Notes under the pieces: generated by a model
The model's input: the letters and a program-made list of their open reading frames with translations, nothing else
Database searches by the model: none
Told to the model about the DNA's origin: nothing
In this document: positions 9,957 through 28,369 of the stretch, piece by piece
Numbering within the stretch: the stretch's first letter is position 1
Layout of the letters: each line of letters starts with the position of its first letter
IMG/VR virus record: IMGVR_UViG_3300031555_006527
DNA: 64,000 bases
Direction: 5' to 3' (one strand)
Origin: an uncultured virus (IMG/VR IMGVR_UViG_3300031555_006527)
Taxonomy: Duplodnaviria; Heunggongvirae; Uroviricota; Caudoviricetes
Position numbers and translations under genes: made by a program

Positions 9957-10358
9957 ATGTTAAACCAAGTAAAAGAGACAGAAAAGTTAAAATATGAACC
10001 ACCAGAAATAACGATTACTCCTCTGTCTACTTTTTCAGAAAATATAAAAAGAGAATTACAACGTTCTGGAAAATCAACTTATTGGCTTGCCAGAAAAAGT
10101 GGTGTAAGTCAAAGTTTAATCAGTAATTATTTAAACGGGAAAACAGAGCCAAGTTTATCAAAAGCTTTAGCGATTGCGAACGCTTTACGAATTCCATTAT
10201 CTCAACTAACAGATGATGAAATTTTTAAAAAGAAGCTATTACCAGAAACTTCAAGAGATATAGAATTTGAGCAAGAAGTATTACAAAGTTGTTCTTCTAC
10301 CACATTATTACAAGAAGTAGATAGACGACTAAACCATTCTAAGAAAAAGACAGTTTAA
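9957..10358 (+). CDS. XRE-family HTH transcriptional regulator
   Basis: LARKSGVSQSLISNYLNGKTEPSL..ALAIANAL HTH. Confidence 0.85.
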   Translation: MLNQVKETEKLKYEPPEITITPLSTFSENIKRELQRSGKSTYWLARKSGVSQSLISNYLNGKTEPSLSKALAIANALRIPLSQLTDDEIFKKKLLPETSRDIEFEQEVLQSCSSTTLLQEVDRRLNHSKKKTV

Positions 10359-10365
10359 CATTGTT

Positions 10366-10490
10366 CGCTTTTTCGTTCAACGGCAGGACTATCTTAATTC
10401 AAAACAGCTAACATCACTCCTTTCTTTTTATTATAAAAAATCAGCAATAAACGAATTAAGATAACAGAGGTTCGACTCCTCTAAGAGCGA
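10366..10490 (+). ncRNA. tRNA-like RNA with extended anticodon stem and about 52-nt loop containing an anti-SD tract
   Basis: Acceptor cgctttt/aagagcg; D-arm gttc/ggac; 10-bp stem atcttaattc/gaattaagat; T-arm agagg-ttcgact-cctct; loop has catcactcctttc. Confidence 0.75.
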
Positions 10491-13044: not shown

Positions 13045-13110
13045 ACAAAAGTTTTGGAAATACGAGAGTAAATTTACTAACGTATTGTAAGTTCGATTCT
13101 TACCTTTTGT
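13045..13110 (+). ncRNA. Degenerate tRNA-like element lacking a D-arm
   Basis: acaaaag/cttttgt acceptor-like stem; T-arm gtaag-ttcgatt-cttac. Confidence 0.5.
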
Positions 13111-13253
13111 TTATTCTCTTTAGGATATCACCTCGTCCTAAGGAGAAGGTCAATAGAACTTTCTTGCCAAAGAAAACAATCCTCCTAGACAGGGAAAGAA
13201 CCACTTCCCAATATAGGAAGAATCGGTTCTTGAATAAAACAAGAGCCGAATCT

Positions 13254-13336
13254 GCAAGTATCGCCTAGTGGTAGGGCACATGACTTTTAATCATGCGAAG
13301 TATTCTTCATCCCGGGTTCGAATCCCGGTACTTGCA
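13254..13336 (+). tRNA. tRNA-Lys(TTT) with long variable arm
   Basis: gcaagta/tacttgc acceptor; catga-ctTTTaa-tcatg; variable arm gaag-tatt-cttc; T-arm ccggg-ttcgaat-cccgg. Confidence 0.85.
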
Positions 13337-13453
13337 TTGAGTCCTTGTGACTCACTATTGGACAATACCACCCATATAAGTACCTCATACTGTAATACTT
13401 CTTTATAATGTAGTTGCGTTGTTAAATTTTGTGGCAATATTGTCCAGTTTCTT

Positions 13454-13526
13454 TGGGGTGTGGTGAAGCGGTTAACACACGGGCCTTTGACTCCCGCATA
13501 CGAGGGTTCAATTCCCTCCACCCTAG
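13454..13526 (+). tRNA. tRNA-Gln(TTG)
   Basis: tggggtg/cacccta acceptor; ctTTGac loop; T-arm gaggg-ttcaatt-ccctc. Confidence 0.85.
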
Positions 13527-13551
13527 CTAGAATTTACAAATAAGACAGGAG

Positions 13552-14049
13552 TTGTTTTTGTTTAAGACTTTAATCTATGATGGTATAGAATATCCCCAAT
13601 TTTTAATTAGTGAGTCTGGAGAAATTCTCAATACAACTACAGACGCTTATTTAAAGCCATATCTACATCCAACAGGATATTATTACATATCTTTACCTAT
13701 GGGGAAAAGAGGTTTAGTAAAAACACTTAGGCTTCATAAAGCTCTTGCCGAAACTTTTATTCCAAATCCACACAATTATCCATTAGTTCATCACAAAGAT
13801 GAAGACAAAAGTAATTATAATTTATCTAACTTAGAATGGACTACTGTAAAAGATAATGTTAATAAGCATTTGGAATATGTTTCAAGAACAAATCCGCTGT
13901 GTAATAACAGAAAATTAACATCAGATGATGTGCGATATATTCGCAATCATAAAGGGGTTATTAGTCAACGAAATTTGGCGACTATGTTTCAGTGTTCAAA
14001 AACAACCATAAGAAATGTCCAACAAGGCGTTTGTTATCAACATGTTTGA
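13552..14049 (+). CDS. HNH homing endonuclease (NUMOD4/HNH_3-like, C-terminal HTH)
   Basis: RLHKALAETFIPNP.NYP.VHHKDEDKSNY..SNLEWTT..DN motif. Confidence 0.85.
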   Translation: MFLFKTLIYDGIEYPQFLISESGEILNTTTDAYLKPYLHPTGYYYISLPMGKRGLVKTLRLHKALAETFIPNPHNYPLVHHKDEDKSNYNLSNLEWTTVKDNVNKHLEYVSRTNPLCNNRKLTSDDVRYIRNHKGVISQRNLATMFQCSKTTIRNVQQGVCYQHV

Positions 14050-14085
14050 CTGCTGCAGACGCAGGTTCGAATCCTGCTACCCCAG
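14045..14085 (+). pseudogene. 3' half of a tRNA-Gln (anticodon to acceptor)
   Basis: tTTGactgctg..gcagg-ttcgaat-cctgc-tacccca-g; tacccca can pair with tggggtg; no 5' half upstream. Confidence 0.7.
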
Positions 14086-14268
14086 CTTCGGAATGGAGCA
14101 GAACTTCATTCTGGTTAAAATTCCTTCCCACGGAATGAAATACGTCTATACATGGAGCTTTTTACCTATCTTTCTCTCCATGAAAAAACTTAGTAGTCTT
14201 CATCAAACTACTTAGATGTCTGAAGTTTTGTTAAATAACTTAAGGCGTTTTATAGGACATTTTTTTTG

Positions 14269-14299
14269 CCGAATACTTAAACCAAAAGATAGCTAAATA
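14269..14299 (+). promoter_or_regulatory. Promoter-like motif, copy 5
   Basis: ccgaatacttaaaccaaaagatagctaaata. Confidence 0.7.
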
Positions 14300-14374
14300 G
14301 TGATGAATAATTCTGTTGTTCATCTTTATGCTTCCCTTTCTAATGAGCTGGGAGTTGCGAGCTCCCGGCAATCT

Positions 14375-14448
14375 GTGCCTTTAGCTCAGTTGGTTAGAGC
14401 ACCGAGCTCATAACTCGGCGGTCCGGGGTTCGAGCCCCTGAAGGCACA
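14375..14448 (+). tRNA. tRNA with CAT anticodon (elongator Met or Ile2)
   Basis: gtgcctt/aaggcac; ccgag-ctCATaa-ctcgg; canonical D and T arms. Confidence 0.9.
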
Positions 14449-14492
14449 TTTTTCCTGCAAAGTAATCAAAAATCTATTTCGGTAAAAACTTA

Positions 14493-14522
14493 CCGAGAAC
14501 TTAAACCAAATTATAGCTAATA
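14493..14522 (+). promoter_or_regulatory. Promoter-like motif, copy 6
   Basis: ccgagaacttaaaccaaattatagctaata. Confidence 0.75.
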
Positions 14523-14545
14523 AGTGATAATAAAAACAAACATAA

Positions 14546-14625
14546 GCTTCATTGGTGGAATTGGCAGACACGCAGGATTTAGGTTCCTGTTCGAAAGAGT
14601 GAGAGTTCGAGTCTCTCATGGAGCA
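14546..14625 (+). tRNA. tRNA-Leu(TAG)
   Basis: gcttcat/atggagc; cagga-ttTAGgt-tcctg; variable arm present. Confidence 0.9.
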
Positions 14626-14652
14626 CTTTCTCGAAAGAGAATAAAAAAATAT

Positions 14653-14726
14653 AGCGGGATAGAGCAGTCTGGAAGCTCGCTAGGCCCATAACCTAGAGGT
14701 CGTTGGTTCAAATCCATCTCCCGCAA
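14653..14726 (+). tRNA. tRNA-Met(CAT), initiator-like
   Basis: 1:72 mismatch (a/a); gagc-agtctggaa-gctc D-arm; ctagg-ccCATaa-cctag; ttcaaat T-loop. Confidence 0.85.
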
Positions 14727-15279
14727 TTCCCCAGTTGCCAAAGGTAGCTTGGGACTAAGCTTTCGTTAAAAGAAACAAAGCGACTTCGCCAAAGCCGCAG
14801 AGAACTGTTTCACGAACGCTAAGATTTATATGGAACGATGTCAGAGATTAGTATTATGGGACATCCCAAGACGGTCCGGAATGTGGTTGTAGCCGTCCAA
14901 GTTTGGAGGAAGCCAAACAAAAAACATTTTTCTATCCTAGATAGACTGGGCTGGTTTCGGGTCCAGACAAGAAAATAAACTTCCAGCTCTATGCTGGGAG
15001 CGACTTTAAAAGTCGCTTAGTAATAAGGATAAAGTCAATATCTATTGGCGACTCATAACAAATTAGTAGACGCACAAAAATCCCAAAAGGTGAGTGTCAT
15101 ATTCCTTAGAGAATAACAGTTCGAATGATTTTTGAGTTTAACGGAAAACCAATACCATCTTACCTGACCTAAAGCCAGAGGGCTACTGCTAATGGCAAAA
15201 AGGCTTTAACGTATCCTGACGGATAGACCTAAGCTGGTTCGGTACGTATCTTGAAATAGGTACTATAGTTAACTCCAGA

Positions 15280-15865
15280 AATGGATGAATGTATGGATTG
15301 ATTTTAGACACAACTACCGCAAATAGGAGTGTTTAACTTACCTCCAAAGAATATCTGAAAACGAAAGACAGGTATTCCGAACAGGAGTTGGTTTCGCAAA
15401 AGCCGACAGGGTTGCGATGAATGGGCGGTACTCAAAAGGTACTGATGTTCAAACGTACACCTCGTAATCCAAAAAGAAAATAATATATTACACACTCATA
15501 CTGTGAAGAGAATTCAAAATAGGTGAATTTATTGTTCATAAAACTATGAATATACTTTTTTTCAAGCAAAAGTGTGTACGACTTCAAAGGGAAAAACAAC
15601 TTATCTATCTGTAATATGGTGGCTTCTTGAATCCGCAAGAGACAAGAAGAAGTAGTACAAGTAGATGCAACTCTAACAGACTGCAATCTGTGAATCTCGC
15701 AAGGAAGAATGTGTCAAACGGAAACTTATGAAGCTTTGGAGTAAGAGTTTGCTACTTTTTGCAAAAGTAGTGTTGTTCTTAACTACAGCTTAATCGGCTG
15801 TGTGACTAATCCTCTCCAATGGGGATAGAAGTTAAGATGTGGCGTCAAGGTCTCAGCGCAAACAG
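15280..15865 (+). ncRNA. Large ornate ncRNA, ROOL-like (GOLLD not excluded); boundaries approximate
   Basis: About 600 nt of hairpin-dense sequence with no + strand ORF, inside a tRNA cluster. Motifs ggtactcaaaaggtact, aagcaaaagtgt, tctcgcaagga and 3' tctcagc are recalled from this RNA class (not searched). Confidence 0.55.
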
Positions 15866-16020
15866 ACAAATTATTTTTTAACTGCTTGGTGGTAAAAGAA
15901 CGATATATAAAATAGCCATGACCTTTTAGTTACACCCAAAAAGTCTTGAATGATTTGGTCAAGAGAGAGGTTGTTCCATTTGGAGAATCGGGAGGATGGA
16001 AGCAGTTAATAAATGTTTTT

Positions 16021-16092
16021 GCATGTATGGTCCAATGGTTAAGATGTCTGCCTTCCAAGCAGAAGATGCGAGTTCGATTCTCGTTACGTGCT
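16021..16092 (+). tRNA. tRNA-Gly(TCC)
   Basis: gcatgta/tacgtgc; tctgc-ctTCCaa-gcaga; U73. Confidence 0.9.
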
Positions 16093-16133
16093 CTTTGGCT
16101 GTCAAAGCCAATATAATTTAACATAGTTACTTG

Positions 16134-16496
16134 TGATGCTTACAGCAAAACTAAAATGCAAAATTTGAATTAACTATTCTAAAACATATTATTCAATTAG
16201 AGGCGTCCTGCTTCTTGCAATCAAACAAAAAAGCATCATGTAAAAAGTAAACTAACAATCTTTAGGGAAACATACAGCAAATCTACTACATATTCAAATG
16301 GGTTGAAGAAAAAAAGTTTCCTGTATAAAGATAACAACCGAACAAAAACCGATAGAGTTTTTTATTGGCAGCGTACATGTACAAAGCCAAATTTGAGCTA
16401 TTGTCAAAAAATTCTTAATGTAAAACATACAGCAATTCTGCTACTTGAAAAAGAAAAATTTTATGAAAAATCTTCAAAAAAAAAGCGTTTCATGTA
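16134..16496 (+). repeat. Three tandem stem-TACAGCAA...stem'-TGTA RNA motifs
   Basis: 16134-16242, 16266-16325 and 16421-16496; the stems differ in sequence but stay complementary. Confidence 0.75.
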
Positions 16497-16533
16497 AGTT
16501 AAGGATTTTATTTTTATGTAAAAAAACAAAATA

Positions 16534-16800
16534 TGGCTAACTGGCCACGTAAAGAACATCATTTAAGTATGCATTGTGGGGAAATTCCACCTGCTTAGAT
16601 TTCTGAAAAAAGAGCTCGTTCAGCGACAGATGTTTGACAGTCTTGTACTGATAGTAATTCCTAAAAATTGCTTATGAAGTGATGGTTGCCAGCGGGGATA
16701 TATTTACCACCGGAATCAGTTCGAGTCTGACCACACGACGGTAGTGTAAAAGTGGAGAGCTAAATATATCAATGATGGGGTTCGATTCCCCTATAGCCAC
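16534..16800 (+). ncRNA. Giant tRNA-like RNA with expanded D- and anticodon-arm equivalents
   Basis: tggcta/tagcca ends; ctggc/gccag; gatatattta/taaatatatc; T-arm gggg-ttcgatt-cccc; a second internal T-loop-like hairpin. Confidence 0.55.
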
Positions 16801-17161
16801 CTATCCGAAAGGAGAATATTTCTTCTGTGATATGTCAAAACACAGAGGCTTATTGGTTCTTGCATAAACCATTCGAGGTCCGTCGAAGAAAAGACGGTAA
16901 TTATCCCAAAAGGGTAATTAAAAGAGCGTTAGTGACTGGTATTTGTGTTGTAAGTTCGGTATCGCTAAAAAACTTACGGAAAATAAGGAATCCACAATGA
17001 GGTTTGAAATGTGTGTATCTGAGAGGAAACCGATGGGCATCAAAGATATGAACGAAAGACCGAGAGTAAGAAACATTTTAGGGTGGCAACCTAGATGACA
17101 ATAAATAGCCCTACTTTAATCTAAATTCACGTTTTACAAAACATAAAAAAAGGAAATTACA

Positions 17162-17629
17162 ATGGCAGAGAGTAAATCTAAGTTATACAAAAGAAAAACA
17201 GTAGAAAAAAAATTGAATGAACTATTGGAAAGAATCTCGCAGCTTAATGAAGAAATATCACATCCGGAGTTTACGTGTTTTGTAGACGAAATGGTTGCTT
17301 TTGGTTCATATATAAACACAGATAATGAAAAAATACATGACCTTGATATAGCAATTAGGTTAAAGCTTAAACCAAGATATAATAATAATATAGGCCTCGC
17401 ATCAAGAGAAGCTCAACAACGAGCACCCGAAAATATTGATTTTTTACGTAAACTTTGCTGGTCCCAAGAAGAAGTTTATCAATATTTAAAAAACAGGTGT
17501 GGCATATATTCTTTTCATTTGTTAGACGAAGAGCGTAAAATTGTAGAAAGTGACATACATAAAGTACTCGTAAAGAATGGAAAACTTACGGGTCAATATT
17601 TAAAAAAATCGCGCGTAAAACGCAAATAA
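17162..17629 (+). CDS. Minimal nucleotidyltransferase (Pol-beta superfamily)
   Basis: AFGSY......IHDLDIAI (GS..DxD) motif. Confidence 0.75.
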   Translation: MAESKSKLYKRKTVEKKLNELLERISQLNEEISHPEFTCFVDEMVAFGSYINTDNEKIHDLDIAIRLKLKPRYNNNIGLASREAQQRAPENIDFLRKLCWSQEEVYQYLKNRCGIYSFHLLDEERKIVESDIHKVLVKNGKLTGQYLKKSRVKRK

Positions 17630-17639
17630 AAAAACATTT

Positions 17640-18024
17640 GGGCCTGTCCCGGTTTCGATGGGGCATACAAAGGAAAATAAGCACGTAGAGGATGGTGGAC
17701 ACCTCTTAAATCCGACACCAAAGAATAAATGCTAACGCATACAGACCAGTAGCTCAGGCTGCCTAATAGGTAAGTAGACTACACCCTTATCTGAAATGGT
17801 AAGGGATAAGCTCTCCGGATAACACCGCTATACTCCGGAGGGTTCAAAAATAGCGGTTGAGATACGGTAAAAGTTCACCCAGAAAGCCATATCAAAATAA
17901 AATCTGGCTGTGCGATGTCGATGGGTTTGCTTATTTAAACATCGGCTGGTACCAAAAATAAGATAAACGTGTAGAAAGTTTTATGGCGGTGTTCCAGACA
18001 GGAGTTCGACTCTCCTCAGGTCCA
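17640..18024 (+). ncRNA. ssrA: tmRNA; tag (A)ANAYRPVAQAA encoded at 17731-17766
   Basis: gggcctg/caggtcc acceptor with G3-U70 and A73; ggtttcga 5' motif; T-arm aggag-ttcgact-ctcct; ATAAAT-GCT resume context; tag ends in AA-stop. Confidence 0.92.
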
Positions 18025-18064
18025 CTCATTATCTCATCCTATATTATTTTGAATTAAGGTATTT

Positions 18065-18292
18065 ATGAATACAATAACATTAACTTGTTTTAATCCAGAA
18101 TGTAACAAAAAGTTTGAGAAATCAATATCCGAATATAATAGAAAAAAAAGAAAAGGTAAGAATACTTTCTTTTGTTGCCAGCAATGTTCAGGATATCTAA
18201 ACAAACTACGTAATTTAGGAACTAGAAAAGAAATTGCGCCAAACAGTATTATATCTTCAGAAATACTTTTTGATATTTTTGAAGTTTTATAA
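18065..18292 (+). CDS. Small Zn-finger protein, possibly a truncated homing endonuclease
   Basis: C....C and FCC..C motifs typical of endonuclease-associated Zn fingers. Confidence 0.5.
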   Translation: MNTITLTCFNPECNKKFEKSISEYNRKKRKGKNTFFCCQQCSGYLNKLRNLGTRKEIAPNSIISSEILFDIFEVL

Positions 18293-18723
18293 TAATTTTT
18301 ATGGTTCTCTGTAAACAAATTATTTAGGAACAGAGTGGTGGGCTATTGGTTAGAAACCAGTACATATTGCAACAATAGTCTTTGACTGCACATCAAGCAT
18401 GTTGCACTGGCAGAGGAGTCTGCGAAAAGGTATCCTATCCCGGAGAGGTGCAGCTAGGGAGTAAGGAAGGAAGAGGCTCCTCTGAACAGAACAAACAAAT
18501 ATTTTGCTGAATTTCTATAAAATAAAATCTTTAGCTAAGTGTGCATAAGCTTTAGAAAGTAATTTGACATAGACGGCAGGTCATGACGATGACTAGAATA
18601 CTACAAATTTAAAGTTAGTTTCAATGCCGATAGCTCATCACTATAATTCAGCATTTGTTCTATAACAGAACAAGCAATAAGTTAATAAAAAACCCCTACT
18701 TATGTAGGGACTAATCCATCTTG

Positions 18724-18795
18724 TGATTCTTACAGCAAATCTTAAAACAGAACTGTAAATCGCAAATTTTACAAAATTATTTTACGAATCATGTA
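18724..18795 (+). promoter_or_regulatory. stem-TACAGCAA...stem'-TGTA motif abutting the RBS of the DUF2828 gene
   Basis: tgattc-ttacagcaa...gaatca-tgta-aggagg-N8-ATG. Confidence 0.7.
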
Positions 18796-18809
18796 AGGAG
18801 GATTTTATT

Positions 18810-20285
18810 ATGAGTTTACGTGAAGCTATTCACAACGAAGCAAAGTGGACAGAAACATGGAATGGTTGTGATACCTTAAAGACCACAGATTCCACCTGTC
18901 TAGACTTATTTGGTAGAGCCGGAGCAATGAGACAGGCTACTACAGAAGAAAAGAACCTGTTATTTAGCAGAGCTTTTCAGGAAAACAAGGATATTGCCGT
19001 AAAGTTATTATTCTATACCCGAGACATTCGTGGCGGATATGGAGAAAGAGATACCTTTATGGATATGTTCCGTCATTTAGCTGAAATCAATCCAGCATCT
19101 GTAGAGAAGAACCTTTGGGCAGTATTAGAATTTGGTCGTGCCAAGGACTTATATTGTTTGATTGGAACTCCTGCAGAATCTGCAATGTGGCAGTTTATGA
19201 AGGCTCAGTTTGAGTTAGACTTAGAGAACTTAGCAAAGGGAAATAGTATTTCTTTATTGGCTAAGTGGATTGCTACACCGGACTCTGGTTCTGAAGAAAC
19301 AAAGAAGCTTGGTAAGTTAACTGCCAAGAAGTTAGGTTATTCCTTCAAGACCATGTCTGACTATAAAAAGAAGCTCCGTTCTCTTCGTAAGTATTTAGAT
19401 TTACCGGAAGCAAAGATGTGTGCTGGTAAGTGGGACGAGATTGAGTACAGCAAGTGTGCATCTAAGTTTTTACTTAAGAACCGTAAGGCTTTTGTAAAGC
19501 ATGATGAAGCTCGTTGGACAGAATTCAATCAGAAGGTAGAAACTGGTGAAGAGAAGATGAACATGGGTACTGTTACTCCATGTGACATTATTCATCAGGT
19601 AAATACCAACTATACCAGAGACCTTGAAACCATGTGGAAGTCTCTTCCGGATGTATGTAAGGGAAATGCTTTAGTCATGTGTGACACTTCCGGTTCTATG
19701 AGCTGGGATAAGTCTGGAGGTATGTATCCAATTGAAGTCGCTACAGCTCTAGCAATTTATTTTGCTCAGAGAAACAAGGGTGACTTAAAGGATGTATTCA
19801 TGACTTTCAGCACTCATCCGGAATATGTAGAGCTTAACGGTGCTACATTAAAGGATAATCTTAATATCGTAAAGGAAGCTGATTGGGATGGTTCTACCGA
19901 CCTTGAAGCGGCTTTTGAGTTATTACTTAAGACCTGTATTAAGGGTAAGGTAACTCCAGAAGAAATGCCAGATGCTATTGTCATTGTATCTGATATGCAG
20001 ATTAACTGTGTAGAGGGTGTTGACCGTGAGCAGAACATGACATTTTACGATGTTATGAAAAAGCGTTATAACGAAGCAGGATATCATCTTCCACAGGTAG
20101 TATTCTGGAATGTCAACGCAAAGAATCCAACCTTCCATGCTGCTAAGAGTGCAAGAGGCGTATCTATGGTAAGTGGATATAGTCCAAACATCTTTAAGCA
20201 GGTAATGGAGAACATTGGAACCACACCTTACGAGCTCATGATGGCAGTAGTCAACAGTGAGCGTTACGAAAAGGTAGTAGCATAA
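18810..20285 (+). CDS. DUF2828-family / TROVE(Ro60)-like protein with C-terminal vWA domain
   Basis: LLFYTRDIRGGYGER; SLLAKW; MIDAS DTSGSM; W.GSTDLEAAF; IVSDMQ; VFWNV; VSGYSP. Confidence 0.85.
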   Translation: MSLREAIHNEAKWTETWNGCDTLKTTDSTCLDLFGRAGAMRQATTEEKNLLFSRAFQENKDIAVKLLFYTRDIRGGYGERDTFMDMFRHLAEINPASVEKNLWAVLEFGRAKDLYCLIGTPAESAMWQFMKAQFELDLENLAKGNSISLLAKWIATPDSGSEETKKLGKLTAKKLGYSFKTMSDYKKKLRSLRKYLDLPEAKMCAGKWDEIEYSKCASKFLLKNRKAFVKHDEARWTEFNQKVETGEEKMNMGTVTPCDIIHQVNTNYTRDLETMWKSLPDVCKGNALVMCDTSGSMSWDKSGGMYPIEVATALAIYFAQRNKGDLKDVFMTFSTHPEYVELNGATLKDNLNIVKEADWDGSTDLEAAFELLLKTCIKGKVTPEEMPDAIVIVSDMQINCVEGVDREQNMTFYDVMKKRYNEAGYHLPQVVFWNVNAKNPTFHAAKSARGVSMVSGYSPNIFKQVMENIGTTPYELMMAVVNSERYEKVVA

Positions 20286-20294
20286 TAGGAACAA

Positions 20295-20323
20295 AAGGCC
20301 TATCTAACCAATAGGTAGGCCTT
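20295..20323 (+). terminator. Hairpin after the DUF2828 gene
   Basis: aaggcctatcta..taggtaggcctt. Confidence 0.55.
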
Positions 20324-20350
20324 CTTCCTCACTATGTTCTAATAAAAAAT

Positions 20351-20477
20351 AGAGAAGTAGCTCAGATGGGAGAGCATCAGCCCTTATAAAAATGTTTCAT
20401 ATGTACGTGTGAAACTAACAGCAAGGAAAAAATTAAGTCCAAGCTGGTTGTCGTCGGTTCGAGCCCGACCTTCTCTA
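20351..20477 (+). ncRNA. tRNA-like RNA with about 60-nt insert in the anticodon loop carrying a permuted ACAGCAA motif
   Basis: agagaag/cttctct; gctc/gagc D-arm; tcagc/gctgg; gtcgg-ttcgagc-ccgac; insert gtttca..tgaaac-taacagcaa. Confidence 0.8.
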
Positions 20478-20795
20478 CTAGGGATATGGCAATTAGTCAT
20501 AAATCAATATGCAATAAGTCCATAACAGAGCCCCCTAATGTTTCCTGTACAAAGCGGCCTCCATCTCACACACCAATCCGCAATAGGGAAACAAACAGCA
20601 ATTTGTCTATTAGATTGGATGAGATGATTCTCTTATTAAAATATCGTCAACGTAAGAGTTTCATCGCTTGTGGGCTTCGGCAATGCAAGCACTCTTCGAA
20701 ACTGGTCCGATATGCCAATCGAAGTAAGTAAAAGGTAAGGAGTGAGGAGTCTCTTCATCCATTTTTAAACTTCTCATTCCTCATCTTTACTATTT

Positions 20796-20978
20796 GAGAG
20801 GAATTTCGTTTTTATAACGAAAACGGTAATTAGTCCTATCTATTTTTCTCCAGTGTGTTGTGTATTTGACTTATCATGTATACTCTTTGGGCAGGGTAGA
20901 CATAAATTTTTCTCCTTAGGTAAACAGTTTGTTACATCTGATAGGAACTAATTGGCGGTTCAAATCCGCCACCTCTCT
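20796..20978 (+). ncRNA. tRNA-like RNA with a long anticodon-arm loop carrying an anti-RBS sequence
   Basis: gagagg/cctctc; tttcgtt/aacgaaa; aattagtcctatc/gataggaactaatt; ggcgg-ttcaaat-ccgcc; loop cataaatttttctcctt. Confidence 0.7.
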
Positions 20979-21067
20979 TTTGTAGGGTTATTCTCAAATT
21001 TGCTTTTCTCTACAAAATGTTATCTTCCTTTCTAAAGATAGGGCTACGAAAATGGTCCTATCTATCT

Positions 21068-21112
21068 GCTTCCTAATTGGCATAAAAAAGGGTTCGATTC
21101 CCTTAGGAAGCA
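21068..21112 (+). ncRNA. Minihelix-like element (acceptor stem plus T-arm only)
   Basis: gcttcct/aggaagc-a with aaggg-ttcgatt-ccctt and a 13-nt connector. Confidence 0.6.
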
Positions 21113-21190
21113 TTTGGGTTCTCAACGTTTCCTTCCAAAAGCGTTGGTAGTTATTTTGATTTTCTTGTTCTTTCGACCAAAAAGTTAGTT

Positions 21191-21304
21191 ATGGGAGTTC
21201 ACGGTTGGTAAGTGCATGGACTCATTCTCCATGGGAATCTGTGATTAGAAATAATCATATGGTCAGGATTCATTATATGAGAGGTTCGAATCCTCTCTCC
21301 CGTA
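21191..21304 (+). ncRNA. tRNA-like RNA, CAT in anticodon position, oversized variable region
   Basis: atgggag/ctcccgt; cac/gtg D-arm; catgga-ctCATtc-tccatg; about 45-nt structured variable region; agagg-ttcgaat-cctct. Confidence 0.65.
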
Positions 21305-21547
21305 ATCTTTAAAGCAAAAAAAACTTCTTTTAAAAGAAGTGAGAGAATTAAGAGCTGAAATAAAAGAATTAGAAGCTCTATTATAAAACTAAACATTTTT
21401 TAGGTTTTCTAACCTCCATGTCTCAGAGATGAAAATATATTTATTCCTATGTCTCTGAGTTTTTTTAACTTAAAAAAAAGAATGTTTATTAAAGCAACTA
21501 AAAAAGTTTTGATTATCTGGCAAAATAAGCCTAAATGTCATTTATTA

Positions 21548-21577
21548 CCGAAAGATTAAACCAATTAGTAGCTAATA
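21548..21577 (+). promoter_or_regulatory. Promoter-like motif, copy 7
   Basis: ccgaaagattaaaccaattagtagctaata. Confidence 0.75.
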
Positions 21578-21676
21578 AGTGTGAATAAAAACTTTATCAT
21601 TCTTCCTCATCCTGTAGTTTTTTCTAAAGGGTTAAATTTCTTAGCCTTTTAGAAAGGCTATAGGAAAAGTATATGT

Positions 21677-21766
21677 GGCAATGTGGCAGAGTCTGGTTTA
21701 TTGCGGCGGTCTTGAAAACCGTTGACTCTCGAAAGAGGTCCGTAGGTTCGAATCCTACCATTGTCG
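21677..21766 (+). tRNA. tRNA-Ser(TGA)
   Basis: ggcaatg/cattgtc, G73; gcggt-ctTGAaa-accgt; long variable arm. Confidence 0.92.
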
Positions 21767-21875
21767 TTGTTTTATCATTTTTATTATGTCACATCCTAAA
21801 AAACTCCGAATAAGAATGAGAAAAACAAAAAATGCACCTTGAAAAATGAACAACGAGAAAAAGGAGGATAATCCA

Positions 21876-24823: not shown

Positions 24824-24853
24824 CCGACAAATTAAACCAAAAAGTAGTTAATA
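24824..24853 (+). promoter_or_regulatory. Promoter-like motif, copy 8
   Basis: ccgacaaattaaaccaaaaagtagttaata. Confidence 0.7.
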
Positions 24854-24899
24854 ATTGTACCTACTAATTTTATATTCCATGAACAGGAGGAAATGAATC

Positions 24900-25817
24900 A
24901 TGGCATACGCATTAGGAAAGCTGTTAGTAATGAATTTAGCAGCTACAGTAAAGAAATGTAATCAGACCACATTAAAAAGTGTTTGTTCTCAGGTAAACAT
25001 TTCTGAAGCACAGTATAACGACTGGTTAAAAGGTGTTACTATTCCAACGAAAGAAGAAATTGAATTGATTTGCAAAAACTTAGATTATCCAATTTCTGAA
25101 TTTTATGAAGAAATTAAAAAAAACGGTGGAAATCTTGCAGAAATTCCTTCTGCCGGAAAGACTACAAAAACAGTTACCCCTACAGAAAAGGAATCTTCCG
25201 CTCCTGAAAAGAAGGCGGAAAAGGCGGAGACCCCTGATAAGAAGGCGGAGACTCCTGATAAGAAAGAGCCTGTAAAAAAGTCTGTAGCGGAAAAGACAGA
25301 AAAAGAAGATTTTCCAATGCCAAAACCTGTAGAAGTTACCCCAACAAAGACTGAAAAACAGGAAACCAAAACTGTAGAACCTAAGAAGCCCAATGTTTCT
25401 TCCCCAAAGAAGAAGCCAGTAGAAAAAACCGAAGAGAAGAAGAAGGAGATTAAGACCATGGACCAGTCCGTTACCGCCGAAACCAAGCCAAAGGCTACCA
25501 GAGCAAAGAAGCAGGCCGAATTAAAGGCATTAACCCCAGAAATGGAAGCAAAGCTTCGTAAAGTAATGGGCTTAAAGAAGACTGACCCGGTAGATGGTTT
25601 GACCGTAGAAAAGAGTCTTGATACCATTAAGGCTTCCATTTTAGAATCTTTTGCATTCTGTGAAGAATTAACAAAGACTTTAACAAATTCTTTTGAAACT
25701 GCTGCAGAAGCCGCAAAAATTGACCCAAGATATGTAGACTTATTAGAGGCAGCTCAGAATGCTTCTGACGAAGGAATTTCCGTTGCTTTAACCATTTTAA
25801 AGCAGTTCAAGAAGTAA
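24900..25817 (+). CDS. XRE-like HTH protein with Lys/Glu/Pro-rich linker
   Basis: VCSQVNISEAQYNDWLKGVTIPT..EIELIC HTH; 21-bp tandem repeat at 25221-25262. Confidence 0.65.
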   Translation: MAYALGKLLVMNLAATVKKCNQTTLKSVCSQVNISEAQYNDWLKGVTIPTKEEIELICKNLDYPISEFYEEIKKNGGNLAEIPSAGKTTKTVTPTEKESSAPEKKAEKAETPDKKAETPDKKEPVKKSVAEKTEKEDFPMPKPVEVTPTKTEKQETKTVEPKKPNVSSPKKKPVEKTEEKKKEIKTMDQSVTAETKPKATRAKKQAELKALTPEMEAKLRKVMGLKKTDPVDGLTVEKSLDTIKASILESFAFCEELTKTLTNSFETAAEAAKIDPRYVDLLEAAQNASDEGISVALTILKQFKK

Positions 25818-25904
25818 TAAGTACATAAAAAAATGGATTAGGTAGGTCTATTAGACCTGCCTACTTCCCATAAAAAAATAATCTTTAAGGAGGATAAAAA
25901 TCCA

Positions 25905-26345
25905 ATGAATAATAAGAAATTATGTATTGGAATTGGTGCAGGTGTTGCCAGCCTTGTAGCAGGAGTTATTGCTATTCCAAAGATTTGTACAGCAATTCGC
26001 AATCGTCGTTATGAGAAAGAAATGGAAAACGATTATTATGAAGCTGTAAAAGAGTATGATGACCTTTGTCAGAAGTTAGAGCAGTTAGAAAAGGTTCATG
26101 CAGAAGCTCTAAAACAGTTTAAGGAATTAGACCTTTCTTCTGAAATTCCAGAAGATGTTGTCAATCGAGAAGTCCTCAGAAATCAGATTAACTTTGCGGC
26201 AAAATCTCACAAGGATTTAAGAGCAGAATTAGCAGAATTCAGCGAGCTCTGGGGCTTTGACGAGTATGAAGGTCCATCCTTAGGCTTTATAGTAGCTGTT
26301 GAAGTCGACGATGAAGAAGACGATGATAGCGAAGATTTTGAATAA
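25905..26345 (+). CDS. Hypothetical protein with N-terminal TM and acidic tail
   Basis: AGGAGG RBS; hydrophobic N-terminus. Confidence 0.65.
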   Translation: MNNKKLCIGIGAGVASLVAGVIAIPKICTAIRNRRYEKEMENDYYEAVKEYDDLCQKLEQLEKVHAEALKQFKELDLSSEIPEDVVNREVLRNQINFAAKSHKDLRAELAEFSELWGFDEYEGPSLGFIVAVEVDDEEDDDSEDFE

Positions 26346-26380
26346 TTAAAAATAAGAGGGGATTCTACCCCTCTAAATAT

Positions 26381-26567
26381 CGCAGAGAATAAAGGAAGCT
26401 ATATTAGGAAAAAGGTGTTTGGGCAGTTTTTTTTGCATATTTGTTAAAACCTCCGAATTACATATATTTAGCAATTAACCATTTTGATAAACTCCTTAAG
26501 TAAATTTTGTCATTTTTACTATCCATTCTCCTTTTTCATAGCATGGGTTCAAATCCCATCTCTGCGT
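26381..26567 (+). ncRNA. tRNA-like scaffold carrying three tandem anti-RBS segments
   Basis: cgcagag/ctctgcg acceptor; atggg-ttcaaat-cccat T-arm; gctat/atagc and gaaaaagg/cctttttc stems; CAT..CCTCC, CAT..CTCCTT and CAT..CTCCTTT inside. Confidence 0.75.
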
Positions 26568-26839
26568 CTGGTTGTTGTAGCTAATCTTTTGGTTAGCTAT
26601 TTGCAATCTGATGTATTTCATGATTTCCTTTGTGAGGCGCTAGATATCTAGCAATAATCTCAATTGAGATTATTTTGGAAAGTCATAATCTCCTGTATAT
26701 TCACAAAGGTCCCCGGTTAGGAGAGCCCGCAGACAATGCACTTTATGACGATTGGGGAGTTCCTCTTAAAAATAAATATTCCCAATAAATTATGAAAACC
26801 TAAAGACCTCATACAGTCTTCGGTTTTTTTTATTTTATT

Positions 26840-26869
26840 CCAAAATCTTAAACCAAAAAGTAGCTAATA
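26840..26869 (+). promoter_or_regulatory. Promoter-like motif, copy 9
   Basis: ccaaaatcttaaaccaaaaagtagctaata. Confidence 0.7.
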
Positions 26870-26905
26870 AGTAGCATTTTTTGTTTAAAGAAAGGAATAT
26901 GATTT

Positions 26906-28039
26906 ATGATTAAAGAAGTAATAGCAACAATGTTAGTTGGTCTTACAATTATTTCTGAAGTTCCATTCACCGAAGAAACAATTGCTCGTCCAATTACTCA
27001 AAAGCTTATTAAAGTAACAGAATCCAATATTAAGATGGTTGGAGATAATTTAATTCATGGCTCTCTTAATAATCAGTGTAAGCAAGCTGACGGTTCTTAC
27101 AAAGAAACCATTATGTACGAGCATGTCAAAGAAGAAATTCAATCTGCTGATATTGCCATTATTAACCAAGAGACCATGTTTGTAGAAGATGAATCCGACT
27201 ATTCTGGTTATCCACGATTTGGAACCACTATGGCAATTGGAGACTCTTTAGTTGAGGCCGGATTTGATGTTATTGCCCATGCTACGAATCATACATTAGA
27301 CCAAGGTTTATCTGGTATTGAACAGACATTAAATTTTTGGAGCAAATATCCAGAAATCAATGTTTTAGGAATTCATGATTCAGAAGAAGATTCCGACATT
27401 TGTTATATTATAAATAATAATATTGTTTTTTCTTTTGTAAATTATACCTATGGTTTAAACGGATTAGATTCTTTAAAGAAGGGCAAAGACTATGTTGTTG
27501 ATATGTTATCTGATGAAAACATTGACAACACCATGAAAGAAGCGAGTGAAAATAGTGATTTTCAGATTGCTATTTTGCATGTTGGAGATGAATATGTATA
27601 TACTCCCACCAGTTATGCCAGAAAACATGTTGATAAATTTATTGACCTTGGAGCAGATTTAGTTTTATGTGCGCATCCACATGTCTTAGAAACCTATGGC
27701 AAACGTACTACAGATGCAGGAAATACTGCCGTTGTTTACTATAGTCTTGGCAATTTTATTTCCACGCAGAATAAAGACCCAAGAATGATAGGTGGTATGG
27801 CTGATATTACAATTCGTAAAGTATCGATTGGAGACCATTCTACAACCTTTATCTCTAATTATGAGTTAATCCCTACAATTACTCATTTAGAAAAAGGAAA
27901 TTATTGTGTTTATTATTTAAAAGACTATACGAATGACTTATGTAAAAAGCATAACCTTTTTAAAGAAAAAACTGTAGATGATTTATGGAAAATGTATCTT
28001 TCTTATATTTCTGAAGCCGATTATTTAATAACACGATAA
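26906..28039 (+). CDS. CapA-family (PGA_cap) metallophosphatase-fold protein
   Basis: VGDNLIH, INQET, ATNHTLDQG, HVGDEY, AHPHV and YYSLGNFIS motifs. Confidence 0.88.
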   Translation: MIKEVIATMLVGLTIISEVPFTEETIARPITQKLIKVTESNIKMVGDNLIHGSLNNQCKQADGSYKETIMYEHVKEEIQSADIAIINQETMFVEDESDYSGYPRFGTTMAIGDSLVEAGFDVIAHATNHTLDQGLSGIEQTLNFWSKYPEINVLGIHDSEEDSDICYIINNNIVFSFVNYTYGLNGLDSLKKGKDYVVDMLSDENIDNTMKEASENSDFQIAILHVGDEYVYTPTSYARKHVDKFIDLGADLVLCAHPHVLETYGKRTTDAGNTAVVYYSLGNFISTQNKDPRMIGGMADITIRKVSIGDHSTTFISNYELIPTITHLEKGNYCVYYLKDYTNDLCKKHNLFKEKTVDDLWKMYLSYISEADYLITR

Positions 28040-28060: not shown

Positions 28061-28315
28061 ATGAAGCAAAAAGTAAATACTTGCAGACATTGTAAAGCTA
28101 TTTTTCAATCGATAATTCCTTTAGCCTACTGTCAAAATTGTAGACATATTGATAATGAGCAATTTACGGTTATTGAGAATTATTTAATCAAACACCCATT
28201 AAGTTGTGCTTTAGATATTTTCCGAGATACAAACGTTCCCATCTCAGAAATCTTACGATATATTGATGAAGGAAAACTAGTTATAGTTGACAATAAAATC
28301 TCTGCGAAGGTTTAG
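28061..28315 (+). CDS. YvyF-like Zn-ribbon/HTH protein
   Basis: CRHC..F......CQNC....EQF..I..YL..HP......I...T.V....I..YI.EGKL pattern. Confidence 0.7.
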   Translation: MKQKVNTCRHCKAIFQSIIPLAYCQNCRHIDNEQFTVIENYLIKHPLSCALDIFRDTNVPISEILRYIDEGKLVIVDNKISAKV

Positions 28316-28369
28316 GCTTTTGCAGAGTTTTTTTATTCAAAATCTTTTTTAAAAATATCGCAATATTTA

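What the first reader, a model, noticed from the sequence alone, without database searches (positions are those of the whole stretch)
26381..26567. tRNA-shaped scaffold displaying three tandem antisense-to-RBS segments: candidate natural tRNA-scaffolded translational silencer
Seen: a perfect 7-bp acceptor stem (cgcagag/ctctgcg) and a canonical T-arm (atggg-ttcaaat-cccat) close a roughly 150-nt insert. The insert holds three segments that are reverse complements of translation starts: 26436-26454 (GGAGG-ttttaacaaat-ATG), 26480-26497 (AAGGAG-tttatcaaa-ATG) and 26511-26533 (AAGGAG-aatggatagtaaaa-ATG). None opens a minus-strand ORF of 60 aa or more, and all credible genes here are on +. Established: acceptor stem plus T-arm is what RNase P and RNase Z recognise, and inserting cargo into the anticodon arm is a laboratory method for stabilising RNA. 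Inference: the element makes processed, nuclease-resistant multi-guide sRNAs that occlude SD and AUG of specific mRNAs. I found no exact target in this window, so targets may be host genes (e.g. defence genes) or competitor elements.
Basis: partly seen in the sequence, partly recalled or inferred. Interest (0 to 1): 0.92.

Follow-up and report, generated by a model that had tools for sequence, protein, structure and literature searches.

The report
Phage tRNA-like RNA with anti-RBS cargo
A large gut phage carries a 187-base element whose ends are shaped like a tRNA and whose middle mirrors three ribosome-binding sites; both features are real and non-random, but whether it silences translation is untested and no target was found.

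Summary
26381-26567 has a perfect 7-bp acceptor stem and a canonical T-arm closing 155 nt. That interior holds 3 of the only 6 strong antisense SD+ATG motifs in 64 kb.

The window is a novel large phage from animal faeces, with all genes on the + strand. All 15 T-arm motifs lie on +. Two other long tRNA-like elements, 20796-20978 and 10366-10490, share the architecture and carry CUCCUU. So a + strand, tRNA-derived structured RNA is the best reading.

It is not a canonical tRNA, not a tmRNA, and not a member of the insert-bearing tRNA family found beside DUF2828 genes.

The proposed silencer function is not supported beyond motif and predicted loop exposure:
- There is no better-than-shuffle target among 88 window start regions.
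- Nothing convincing turned up in 401 candidate-host-family genomes.
- No relatives of the locus exist in the collections searched, so there is no covariation.
- No RNA data are available.

Rivals that remain:
- an insertion-bearing or decaying tRNA-Glu(CUC) gene;
- a minus-strand micro-ORF unit ending at a minus-oriented terminator at 26374-26355;
- a partner or decoy RNA.

Interest is moderate. In passing I found a conserved family of tRNAs with about 50-nt anticodon-loop inserts beside DUF2828 genes.

The parts
26355..26374 (-). G+C-rich hairpin (AGAGGGG-tagaat-CCCCTCT). It has a T-tract only on the minus strand (TATTTTTAAT). It lies 9 nt after the stop of the + gene 25905-26345 and 6 nt before the element.
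   Evidence: Searches list it as a terminator-like site on the minus strand. On + the tail is AAATAT.
26381..26387 (+). 5' strand of the acceptor-like stem (CGCAGAG)
   Evidence: 7/7 Watson-Crick with 26560-26566
26388..26397 (+). Unpaired linker AAUAAAGGAA holding a GG, where a tRNA D-loop would offer G18 G19. The same AA[AC]GG[ACU]A word stands at the same place in 10366-10490 and 20796-20978.
   Evidence: Read. The tertiary contact is inferred, not tested.
26398..26415 (+). 5' strand of the long closing arm (GCUAU, a 5-nt bulge, GAAAAAGG)
   Evidence: Constrained and free folds
26436..26454 (+). Antisense start region 3 (CAU-N11-CCUCC). The minus strand reads GGAGG-N11-ATG, opening a 21-codon ORF.
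   Evidence: CCUCC is predicted 99% unpaired.
26480..26497 (+). Antisense start region 2 (CAU-N9-CUCCUU). The minus strand reads AAGGAG-N9-ATG, opening a 4-codon ORF. It is followed by AAGUAAA, a word shared with 20912-20924.
   Evidence: Similarity to the module of 20796-20978 gives z 4.3, 1 of 1000 shuffles. Predicted 83-97% unpaired.
26511..26533 (+). Antisense start region 1 (CAU-N14-CUCCUU). Its CCUU is paired in the closing arm. ARAGORN reads UUCUCCU here as an anticodon loop (CUC).
26530..26542 (+). 3' strand of the long closing arm (CCUUUUUC AUAGC), abutting the T-arm with no variable region
26543..26559 (+). T-arm: 5-bp stem with loop UUCAAAU
   Evidence: (Rfam tRNA positions 44-63, 14.2 bits). 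A 21-nt stretch across it (26541-26561) is identical in 5 of 401 genomes of G002's family. In the two inspected (L110, L111) it lies in tRNA-Ser(GGA).
26560..26567 (+). 3' strand of the acceptor-like stem (CUCUGCG) plus discriminator U. No encoded CCA.
26568..26845 (+). Rest of the 560-nt gene-free gap. It is strongly structured on + (z -4.2, 0 of 200 shuffles). It holds a 10-bp hairpin at 26577-26600, perfect palindromes GCTAGATATCTAGC (26639-26652) and AATAATCTCAATTGAGATTATT (26653-26674), and a weak hairpin plus T8 run at 26803-26831. It may belong to the same transcript.
20796..20978 (+). Second element of the same architecture, 183 nt: a 6-bp acceptor, a 5' hairpin, a 13-14-bp long arm abutting T-arm GGCGG-UUCAAAU-CCGCC, and an interior holding CAU-N8-CUCCUUAGGUAAA
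   Evidence: z -3.55, 0 of 200
10366..10490 (+). Third long tRNA-like element, 125 nt: a 7-bp acceptor, a D-arm, an 11-bp arm closing a 53-nt loop with CACUCCUUUCU, and a T-arm. It also reads as tRNA(UCA) with a 53-nt insert at 37/38.
   Evidence: z -3.07; 37.7 bits, E 3e-6, to model R1

Best explanation
26381-26567 is a + strand, tRNA-derived structured RNA gene, not a canonical tRNA.

Shown:
- A perfect acceptor stem and a canonical T-arm, with a GG-bearing linker.
- A 13-bp arm that abuts the T-arm and closes an AU-rich interior of about 105 nt.
- That interior holds a non-random cluster of sequences complementary to SD-spacer-AUG.
- The phage has at least two more elements of the same build.

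Inferred:
- It is transcribed with the upstream operon. The phage promoter motif stands before 24900, none stands directly before the element, and a T8 run lies at 26824-26831.
- It is released by the host's tRNA end-processing enzymes and receives CCA. This gives a stable RNA.
- Its free CCUCC and CUCCUU loops pair with Shine-Dalgarno/start regions of mRNAs, acting as an anti-RBS regulator or SD sponge.

The first half (tRNA-like + strand RNA) I hold at about 0.6. The anti-RBS function I hold at about 0.25. The figure below is for the statement as a whole, read loosely.
For: - The ends are real and non-random.
- All 15 T-arm motifs are on +, as are all 18 ARAGORN calls at the 90% threshold, including this one.
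- The fold is stable: MFE -42.4, z -3.61, 1 of 200 shuffles. The tRNA-like ends cost only 0.8 kcal/mol.
- The + strand folds better than the minus strand: -42.4 against -39.1 here, and -49.6 against -42.0 for 20796-20978.
- Three elements share the architecture without overall sequence similarity.
- Four of the 5 CTCCTT words in non-coding DNA of the window lie in these three elements.
- Three of 6 strong antisense SD+ATG motifs lie here and one lies in 20796-20978.
- Module 2 resembles the module of 20796-20978.
- Two of the three anti-SD motifs are predicted unpaired.
- No sigma-70-like or phage-type promoter stands on the minus strand.
- None of 5 small ORFs of the gap is on record as a called protein, although the neighbouring CapA is on 12 contigs.
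- Precedent for tRNA-like modules cut by RNase P and given CCA: M. smegmatis YrlA (PMC4201824, passages read).
Against: - There is no expression or strand evidence of any kind.
- There are no relatives, so no covariation. Four metagenome runs hold identical sequence.
- No target beats shuffled controls in the window. Best energies were -19.1, -19.1 and -21.9 kcal/mol, against shuffle minima of -19.4, -19.4 and -24.4.
- The shared word TTTACYTAAGGAG has no + strand match closer than 2 mismatches (10 matches against 5.4 +/- 2.2 expected).
- The best cargo hits in 401 genomes are one 31-nt alignment at 91% identity antisense to a gene start, and generic RBS or coding matches.
- The third motif is buried in the closing arm.
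- The hairpin 26355-26374 is a terminator only for the minus strand.
- The motif is absent from 119 of 120 long tRNA-like elements elsewhere.
- CAU at start-codon distance is also what real minus-strand starts would give.
Confidence: 0.4

Rival explanations
1. An insertion-bearing tRNA gene, or its decaying remnant. This would be a tRNA-Glu(CUC)-like gene with a 113-nt insert at position 32/33. The third CUCC is simply anticodon CUC plus C37. The insert is either removed by an unknown route or has killed the gene. The antisense start motifs are then passenger sequence of the inserted DNA.
For: - ARAGORN calls exactly this at the 90% threshold, where no minus-strand call occurs.
- The same phage has insert-bearing tRNAs: tRNA-Trp 20351-20477 with a 56-nt insert at 32/33 (Rfam 47 bits; ARAGORN default), and 10366-10490 with 53 nt at 37/38.
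- Such inserts are conserved across many phages.
- A tRNA remnant beside an HNH endonuclease gene (14061-14084) shows that tRNA genes here get broken up.
Against: - The spliced product would be poor: a 3-bp all-A/U D-stem and a pyrimidine at position 37.
- It is missed at the ARAGORN 100% and 95% thresholds.
- Rfam scores only the T-arm.
- It does not match model R1 of the conserved insert family (10.6 bits, T-arm only).
- The 5' half shows no residue of a D-arm, yet the acceptor is 7/7. The interior is closed by a 13-bp helix with an overall z of -3.6.
- No short-intron splicing route is known to me in bacteria (recalled).
Confidence: 0.22
2. A minus-strand unit of tiny ORFs or minigenes. A transcript would read leftward through the element and end at the terminator 26374-26355. 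Ribosomes would load at the three Shine-Dalgarno sites to make a 21-aa peptide (MQKKLPKHLFPNIASFILCDI) and 4-5-codon minigene products, or a 41-aa or 22-aa protein. The tRNA-like ends would be a relic.
For: - The SD sequences match the phage's own (GGAG in 42 of 90 genes). Spacings of 9 and 12 nt lie within its range.
- CAT at start distance accompanies 4 of the 5 non-coding CTCC words in the three elements (and by reading).
- The 21-codon ORF stops inside a hairpin that is a proper intrinsic terminator only on the minus strand.
- Phage minigenes with strong SD are a known thing (lambda bar, recalled).
Against: - No promoter-like site stands on the minus strand in 25800-27100, and the phage's own promoter motif is on + only.
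- Every credible gene of the window is on +.
- The ORFs have 4, 5, 21, 22 and 41 codons, with no family hit. None is on record as a called protein.
- The third SD is 14 nt from its ATG. The ATG 1 nt after it is too close.
- In 10366-10490 the same CUCCUU has its CAT only 2 nt away, so no start is possible.
- In 20796-20978 the ORF is 9 codons and sits antisense inside an RNA-gene island.
- The shared word between the two elements is kept at the nucleotide level, across different reading frames.
Confidence: 0.15
3. A protein-binding tRNA mimic. It would be either a Y-RNA-like partner of the phage's DUF2828/vWA 'RNA-binding protein' (18810-20285), or a decoy for host tRNA-directed enzymes or nucleases. 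The pyrimidine-rich interior would be a protein-binding surface rather than an antisense guide.
For: - The DUF2828 gene lies 6.1 kb upstream. In about 160 phage loci it is flanked by long tRNA-like genes.
- Y RNAs with tRNA-like domains are encoded near Ro60 genes in more than 250 bacteria and phages (PMC4201824, abstract and passages).
- Jumbo phages carry ROT/TROVE proteins said to work with a tRNA-like partner (PMC7824862, passage).
Against: - The element is separated from the DUF2828 gene by a 968-aa gene and two others. It is not part of the cassette shared with other phages.
- It fails model R1.
- It lacks the GNCGAAN0-1G word named for YrlA (by reading, against the passage).
- phmmer of the DUF2828 protein finds no Ro60 in the PDB, so even 'Ro-like' is only recalled.
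Confidence: 0.1
4. A chance or relic arrangement: an attachment-site-like 3' tRNA fragment, or a piece of host DNA brought in with the host-derived capA gene, with a fortuitous 7-nt complement upstream.
For: - capA (26906-28039) is 52-60% identical to Clostridia and Lachnospiraceae genes.
- A 21-nt stretch across the T-arm is identical in 5 of 401 genomes of the family searched. In the two inspected it lies in tRNA-Ser(GGA).
Against: - The 24-nt T-arm plus acceptor string has no exact match in 185,579 species genomes or in IMG/VR.
- No integrase was found in the window.
- None of the 80 bacterial capA loci has a tRNA-like element in the 2 kb upstream.
- capA has its own phage promoter motif at 26831-26869, so it is a separate unit.
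- A 7/7 complement within 400 nt has a chance of roughly 2-3%. Four of 6 unannotated T-arms in the window have such partners.
Confidence: 0.05

Closest known systems
tmRNA (tRNA-like domain closing a large insert)
   Same: An acceptor stem and T-arm formed by the two ends. There is no true D-stem, and a long helix replaces the anticodon stem and closes a large interior. The phage also carries a real tmRNA at 17640-18027.
   Different: - There is no Rfam or ARAGORN tmRNA signal.
- Position 3:70 is C-G, not the G-U that I recall as the alanine identity pair.
- No tag reading frame or pseudoknots were found.
- It is 187 nt against 388 nt.
Bacterial and phage Y RNAs with a tRNA-like domain (YrlA; PMC4201824)
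   Same: They are non-coding RNAs that mimic tRNA. One, with a 7-bp acceptor stem, is cut by RNase P and receives CCA (passages read). A possible protein partner gene is in the window.
   Different: - In YrlA the RNA's own ends form the protein-binding stem and the tRNA-like part is internal. Here the ends form the acceptor stem.
- There is no GNCGAAN0-1G word.
- The element is not adjacent to the DUF2828 gene.
- It fails the model of the DUF2828-associated tRNAs.
Phage T4 RNAC and RNAD
   Same: Small stable RNAs made from a phage tRNA region, with biological roles unknown (PMC3014915, one passage read).
   Different: The candidate lies 4.6 kb beyond the window's tRNA island.
Insert-bearing tRNAs beside DUF2828 genes
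   Same: Same phage, same strand, and a long insert between the D-side and the T-arm. 10366-10490, which shares the candidate's architecture and CUCCUU, matches R1 at 37.7 bits.
   Different: The candidate has no canonical D-arm, no hairpin-plus-ACAGCAA insert, and scores 10.6 bits over the T-arm only.
Engineered tRNA scaffolds, and tRNA-linked small RNAs of a mouse herpesvirus (both recalled, no call)
   Same: The idea is the same: tRNA-like ends recruit tRNA processing enzymes and protect or release a cargo RNA.
   Different: - As I recall them, engineered scaffolds keep the whole tRNA body and replace only the anticodon stem-loop. Here the D and anticodon arms are gone.
- The viral case places hairpins after a complete tRNA-like unit, not inside it.
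- I found no natural bacterial or phage case in print. The search for 'tRNA-like' + 'bacteriophage' + 'anti-Shine-Dalgarno' gave 2 unrelated papers. The search for 'phage-encoded' + 'tRNA-like' + 'small RNA' + 'RNase P' gave 1 review. Only the listings were seen.

Membership tests
Canonical tRNA (Rfam RF00005 / ARAGORN) | Full cloverleaf scoring at or above the curated threshold (29 bits) | tested here: not met
   Rfam gives 14.2 bits, E 9.2, model positions 44-63 only. There is no call at gathering score. ARAGORN default finds nothing.
Canonical tRNA (Rfam RF00005 / ARAGORN) | 7-bp acceptor stem and a T-arm with a T-loop of the usual form | tested here: met
Intron-bearing tRNA | A well-formed tRNA once an anticodon-loop insert is removed | tested here: inconclusive
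   ARAGORN -i calls tRNA-Glu(ctc) with a 113-nt insert only at thresholds of 90% or lower. At 90% there were 0 minus-strand calls among 18; at 85% there were 14 among 44. The D-stem has 3 A/U pairs and position 37 is C.
tmRNA (RF00023) | tRNA-like domain plus tag reading frame and pseudoknots; model match | tested here: not met
   There is no tmRNA hit in 26200-27000 at E up to 10. ARAGORN -m at 80% finds nothing.
DUF2828-associated insert-bearing tRNAs (model R1, built here) | Canonical D-arm, then an insert with a hairpin followed by ACAGCAA; full-length match to R1 | tested here: not met
   10.6 bits, E 4.6, positions 97-114 only. The window's Trp gene scores 86.9 bits and 10366-10490 scores 37.7 bits.
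YrlA-type Y RNA | Encoded next to the Ro60-type gene; conserved GNCGAAN0-1G word (PMC4201824 passage) | tested here: not met
   The element lies 6.1 kb from the DUF2828 gene with three genes between. The word is absent by reading. No Rfam family matched above noise.
Trans-acting anti-RBS small RNA | Complementarity to a real translation start region beyond a generic SD plus AUG | tested here: inconclusive
   It was not found among 88 start regions of the window or in 401 genomes of one candidate host family. The rest of the phage genome and the true host were not available.
Trans-acting anti-RBS small RNA | Seed exposed in a loop | tested here: met
   By prediction only. CCUCC is 0.99 unpaired, CUCCUU 26492-97 is 0.83-0.97 unpaired, and the third motif is paired.
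Trans-acting anti-RBS small RNA | A discrete transcript of the + strand | not testable with these tools
   No RNA run was listed among the 8 holders. The runs that were laid are DNA contigs.
Minigene / small-protein gene on the minus strand | Promoter, SD at working distance, ORF and terminator on the minus strand | tested here: inconclusive
   The SD sites and the terminator are present. No promoter-like site was found. The ORFs have 4-41 codons, without family or record.

The most novel reading that the evidence does not exclude
This phage makes a small class of natural 'tRNA-scaffolded' regulators. These are RNAs of 125-187 nt whose tRNA-like elbow and acceptor end hijack the host's tRNA processing and CCA addition for stability. 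Their expanded arm would display one to three anti-Shine-Dalgarno/anti-start guides. The guides would shut off chosen host or competitor mRNAs, or time the phage's own late genes.
Probability: 0.2. Interest if true: 0.85.

Novelty: new variant of a known kind. Interest (0 to 1): 0.45.

Why it matters
If the + strand RNA is real and acts on ribosome-binding sites, it would be the first natural bacterial or phage counterpart of the laboratory tRNA scaffold. It would also be a new way for a phage to regulate translation.

Even without that function, the window matters. This unexplored lineage of large gut phages devotes several kilobases to aberrant tRNA-like genes, next to a tmRNA, a GOLLD-like RNA and a DUF2828 RNA-binding protein. 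tRNA finders and Rfam miss most of them.

The side observation is directly testable and probably the more valuable lead: a conserved insert in tRNAs beside DUF2828 genes, seen in dozens of phage contigs.

Tried and rejected
Searches for relatives of the locus:
- blastn of 25900-27000 against GenBank phages found none.
- tblastn of the two upstream proteins found none.
- CapA and the 146-aa protein found no relatives in IMG/VR. CapA found none in JGI metagenomes.
- The 24-nt T-arm plus acceptor string gave 0 matches in IMG/VR and 0 in 185,579 species genomes.
- The pattern CTCCTTARGTAAA-N25-50-GGTTCAAATCC gave 0 in IMG/VR.
- blastn of the whole gap against 2.55 Mb of fetched phage loci matched only T-arm-sized stretches.
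- The 268-kb contig G001 (DUF2828 78% identical, similar tmRNA tag) and L114-L119 share only the DUF2828 gene and its tRNAs, not this locus.

Expression:
- No RNA holder was listed among 8 runs.
- Four DNA runs hold identical sequence, so they give no variation to read.

Other ideas tested:
- Quorum-sensing (RRNPP/Rgg-type) peptide idea for the 21-aa ORF. The nearby 305-aa HTH protein has only an HTH_3 domain and a low-complexity middle, with no matching family. Dropped.
- Alternative genetic code. Reading TGA or TAG as sense raises coverage only from 0.78 to 0.80-0.82. Dropped.
- AT skew as a strand clue. It is negative here but also in the + strand RNA island, so it is uninformative.
- Overall homology of the candidate with 20796-20978 or 10366-10490. 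Not significant (z 0.9 and 0.5).
- Tandem-repeat origin. TRF finds nothing.

Calls that gave no usable result:
- One search folded wrong coordinates and is not used.
Full report
**What the window is.** All 74 ORFs of 100 aa or more but a few nested ones lie on the + strand. Most proteins have no PHROG family: 16 of 79 scanned had one, in addition to 3 of the 9 neighbours. ARAGORN and Rfam find tRNA genes at 13253-21767 and a tmRNA at 17640-18027. There is no nucleotide match in GenBank phages. The sequence stands nearly unchanged in several animal faeces metagenomes. Its proteins are on record on contigs up to 164,574 bases. It is therefore part of a large, unexplored phage. The host-derived capA gene (52-60% identical to Clostridia and Lachnospiraceae genes) hints at a clostridial host.

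**The observation.** It is not chance.
- A scan for T-arms (5-bp stem closed by G-C, loop [TA]TC[AG]ANN) gives 15 hits in the window, all on the + strand. Nine lie in annotated tRNA/tmRNA genes. The candidate's T-arm has a 7/7 Watson-Crick acceptor partner 186 nt upstream.
- On about 375 kb of bacterial DNA the same scan gave only two spurious T-arms, neither with a partner.
- The minus strand of the whole window has just six strong SD-N4-14-ATG motifs. Three are packed into 26436-26533 and a fourth is at 20917. No shuffle of 200 produced a cluster of three.

**What it is not.**
- Rfam's tRNA model matches only the T-arm (14.2 bits).
- ARAGORN finds nothing at its default threshold. It calls 'tRNA-Glu(ctc) with a 113-nt intron' only at 90%, a level at which all 18 calls are still on the + strand.
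- There is no tmRNA signal.
- The 5' third has no D-arm.
- The 24-nt T-arm plus acceptor string occurs in none of 185,579 species genomes and nowhere in IMG/VR. No integrase is in the window. Bacterial capA loci have no tRNA-like element upstream. An attachment-site or co-acquired relic is therefore unlikely.

**Anatomy.**
- The free fold (-42.4 kcal/mol, z -3.6, 1 of 200 shuffles) and a fold forced to keep acceptor and T-arm (-41.6) agree on the layout. It runs: acceptor stem, an unpaired linker with a GG, then a 13-bp arm (26398-26402 plus 26408-26415 with 26530-26542) that abuts the T-arm and closes about 105 nt.
- In that ensemble CCUCC (26450-54) and CUCCUU (26492-97) are unpaired. The third CUCCUU is mostly in the closing arm.
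- The remaining 280 nt of the gene-free gap are also strongly structured on + (z -4.2). They end in a T8 run.
- A phage promoter motif, found at 14 + strand sites, stands only after that, before capA.

**The element is not alone in the window.** The T-arm scan exposed six unannotated T-arms. Two belong to elements of the same build.
- 20796-20978 is 183 nt. It has a 6-bp acceptor, a 5' hairpin, a 13-14-bp arm abutting the T-arm, and an interior with CAU-N8-CUCCUUAGGUAAA (z -3.55).
- 10366-10490 is 125 nt. It has an 11-bp arm closing a 53-nt loop with CACUCCUUUCU (z -3.07).
- The three have no overall sequence similarity. Module 2 of the candidate does resemble the module of 20796-20978 (1 of 1000 shuffles).
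- Four of the five CTCCTT words in the window's non-coding DNA lie in these three elements.
- In 10366-10490 the nearest CAT is 2 nt from the CTCC, so a minus-strand start is not possible there.
- In 20796-20978 the minus ORF is nine codons, inside a + strand RNA island.
- Together with the + strand bias of all tRNA-like features and slightly better + strand folding, this favours a + strand RNA.

**Tests of the silencer idea.**
- RNAduplex of each module against the 88 start regions of the window gave best energies no better than the best of shuffled modules. The partial exception was 20796-20978 against gene 8054, at -23.9 against a shuffle minimum of -21.1.
- The longest exact complements are 12-13 nt at genes 59281 and 60267, with blast E of 0.4-1.7.
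- The shared word TTTACYTAAGGAG has no close + strand copy.
- A search of 401 genomes of the family of G002 returned 23 genomes at E of 0.003 or less. G002's record title reads Lachnospiraceae bacterium.
  - Five are a 21-nt T-arm identity; the two inspected lie in tRNA-Ser(GGA).
  - The best cargo match is a 31-nt alignment at 91% identity, antisense to the start of a gene that I take, from its N-terminal residues alone, to be a transporter.
  - The other loci read hold an ordinary RBS region, the start of another gene's coding sequence, and one similarity I did not classify.
  - In AT-rich sequence, over about 1 Gb, this is not convincing.
- In 2.5 Mb of other phage DNA, 120 long tRNA-like elements held the antisense-start motif once.
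- So the function is neither shown nor excluded. Sixty per cent of the phage genome and the true host were out of reach.

**The main rival observations.**
- The hairpin 26355-26374 has a T-tract only on the minus strand. The 21-codon minus ORF stops inside it. That is what a leftward transcription unit would look like.
- Against it: no promoter-like site on the minus strand, no other minus-strand gene, tiny ORFs without family or record, and the arguments from the two sister elements.
- The insertion-bearing-tRNA reading is kept alive by the phage's other insert-bearing tRNAs. However, the candidate fails the covariance model built from that family, and its 'exons' make a poor tRNA.

**Comparison with what is known.**
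- Architecturally it is closest to the tRNA-like domain of tmRNA, and to tRNA-mimicking Y RNAs. One such Y RNA, with a 7-bp acceptor stem, is cut by RNase P and receives CCA (PMC4201824, abstract and passages).
- T4 makes two small RNAs of unknown role from its tRNA region (PMC3014915, one passage).
- That RNase P and RNase Z accept acceptor/T-arm minihelices, and that tRNA scaffolds stabilise cargo RNAs in the laboratory, I recall from memory. No call tested either.
- I found no natural phage case in print with the two searches named under Closest known systems (listings only).
- It is a member of none of the families tested (see Membership tests).

**Verdict.** The finding is a real, unusual, tRNA-derived element with a non-random antisense-RBS cluster. 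A + strand structured RNA is the best reading (about 0.6). The translational-silencer mechanism is the leading functional guess but weakly grounded (about 0.25). Moderate interest, pending one strand-specific RNA experiment.

Noticed in passing
window 20351-20477; L001 11845-11967 and 12198-12335; L115 7453-7577 and 7815-7941; many of L114-L272: A conserved family of tRNA genes of 100-145 nt lies directly beside DUF2828 ('RNA-binding protein', PHROG 850) genes, often 2-3 in tandem.
- They have a normal acceptor, D-arm and T-arm. An insert of about 45-60 nt sits in the anticodon loop, made of a covarying hairpin followed by a near-invariant ACAGCAA.
- I found 91 such genes (61 unique) in about 160 phage and metagenome loci; 63 of the 91 hold ACAGCAA.
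- Alignment A4 (40 sequences) shows compensatory changes in 15 of 16 predicted pairs of the tRNA body.
- The window's member is tRNA-Trp(cca). It is missed by ARAGORN without the intron option and scores 47 bits in Rfam.
- Only this gene-plus-tRNA cassette is shared between otherwise unrelated phages.
- No Rfam family other than tRNA matched it.
- This may be a new kind of phage tRNA insert, or Y-RNA-like partners of the DUF2828 protein.
   Followed up: partly
window 10366-10490: A tRNA-like gene right after an HTH repressor gene (9957-10358).
- ARAGORN at 95% reads it as tRNA(tca), SeC-like with an 8-bp acceptor, with a 53-nt insert at the canonical 37/38 position.
- It matches model R1 at 37.7 bits, E 3e-6.
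- If spliced, this anticodon would read UGA. Yet reading TGA as sense hardly lengthens the ORFs.
- The insert's loop word CACUCCUUUCU looks like the anti-SD tail of 16S rRNA (recalled, not tested).
   Followed up: partly
window 15409-15859: A partial match to GOLLD RNA (RF02032): 76.1 bits, E 1e-18, below the gathering score of 150. It lies inside the tRNA island between tRNA-Met and tRNA-Gly. GOLLD is described as phage-borne and often near tRNA islands (bioRxiv 10.1101/2024.12.08.627333, passages).
   Followed up: no
window 13045-13111, 21068-21112, 21191-21304, 13954-14084: Further aberrant tRNA-like elements on the + strand:
- a 67-nt form with acceptor, T-arm and one hairpin in place of the D and anticodon arms;
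- a minihelix of a 9-bp acceptor plus T-arm (Rfam tRNA 25.1 bits);
- a 114-nt cloverleaf with a CAU-type loop and a long extra arm (ARAGORN reads Leu(cag) with a 41-nt insert; R1 gives 27.6 bits);
- a T-arm plus 3' acceptor fragment just after an HNH endonuclease gene (13552-14049).

   Followed up: partly
window, 14 + strand sites: 10925, 12814, 12933, 14290, 14514, 21569, 26861, 28391, 29538, 32742, 34734, 40208, 42449 (TAGCTAA start), and a blast match at 24832-24854: A conserved phage promoter-like motif, roughly TTGCCGA-N4-CTTAAACCAAA-N3-TAGCTAATA. It is always on + and stands before tRNA genes and protein genes alike. It is probably the recognition site of a phage-specific transcription factor or sigma factor.
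   Followed up: no
window 26639-26674: Two adjacent perfect palindromes, GCTAGATATCTAGC and AATAATCTCAATTGAGATTATT, lie in the structured gap downstream of the element. They look operator-like. Two HTH proteins are nearby in the window, at 24900-25817 and 9957-10358.
   Followed up: no
window 17640-18027 and G001 143831-144240: Phage-borne tmRNA genes with related tag peptides: ANAYRPVAQAA in the window and ADNSRPVAIAA in the 268-kb IMG/VR contig. The two phages otherwise share little in the regions compared.
   Followed up: no
window 26906-28039: A CapA/PGA_cap (poly-gamma-glutamate capsule synthesis family) gene in a phage. It is 52-60% identical to genes of Lachnospiraceae and other Clostridia, and has its own phage promoter motif. 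It appears to be a host-derived accessory gene.
   Followed up: partly
window 28300-28327: The + strand terminator after gene 28061-28315 is built from CTCTGCG...TGCAGAG. That is the same heptamer as the candidate's 3' acceptor strand. It is probably coincidence.
   Followed up: no
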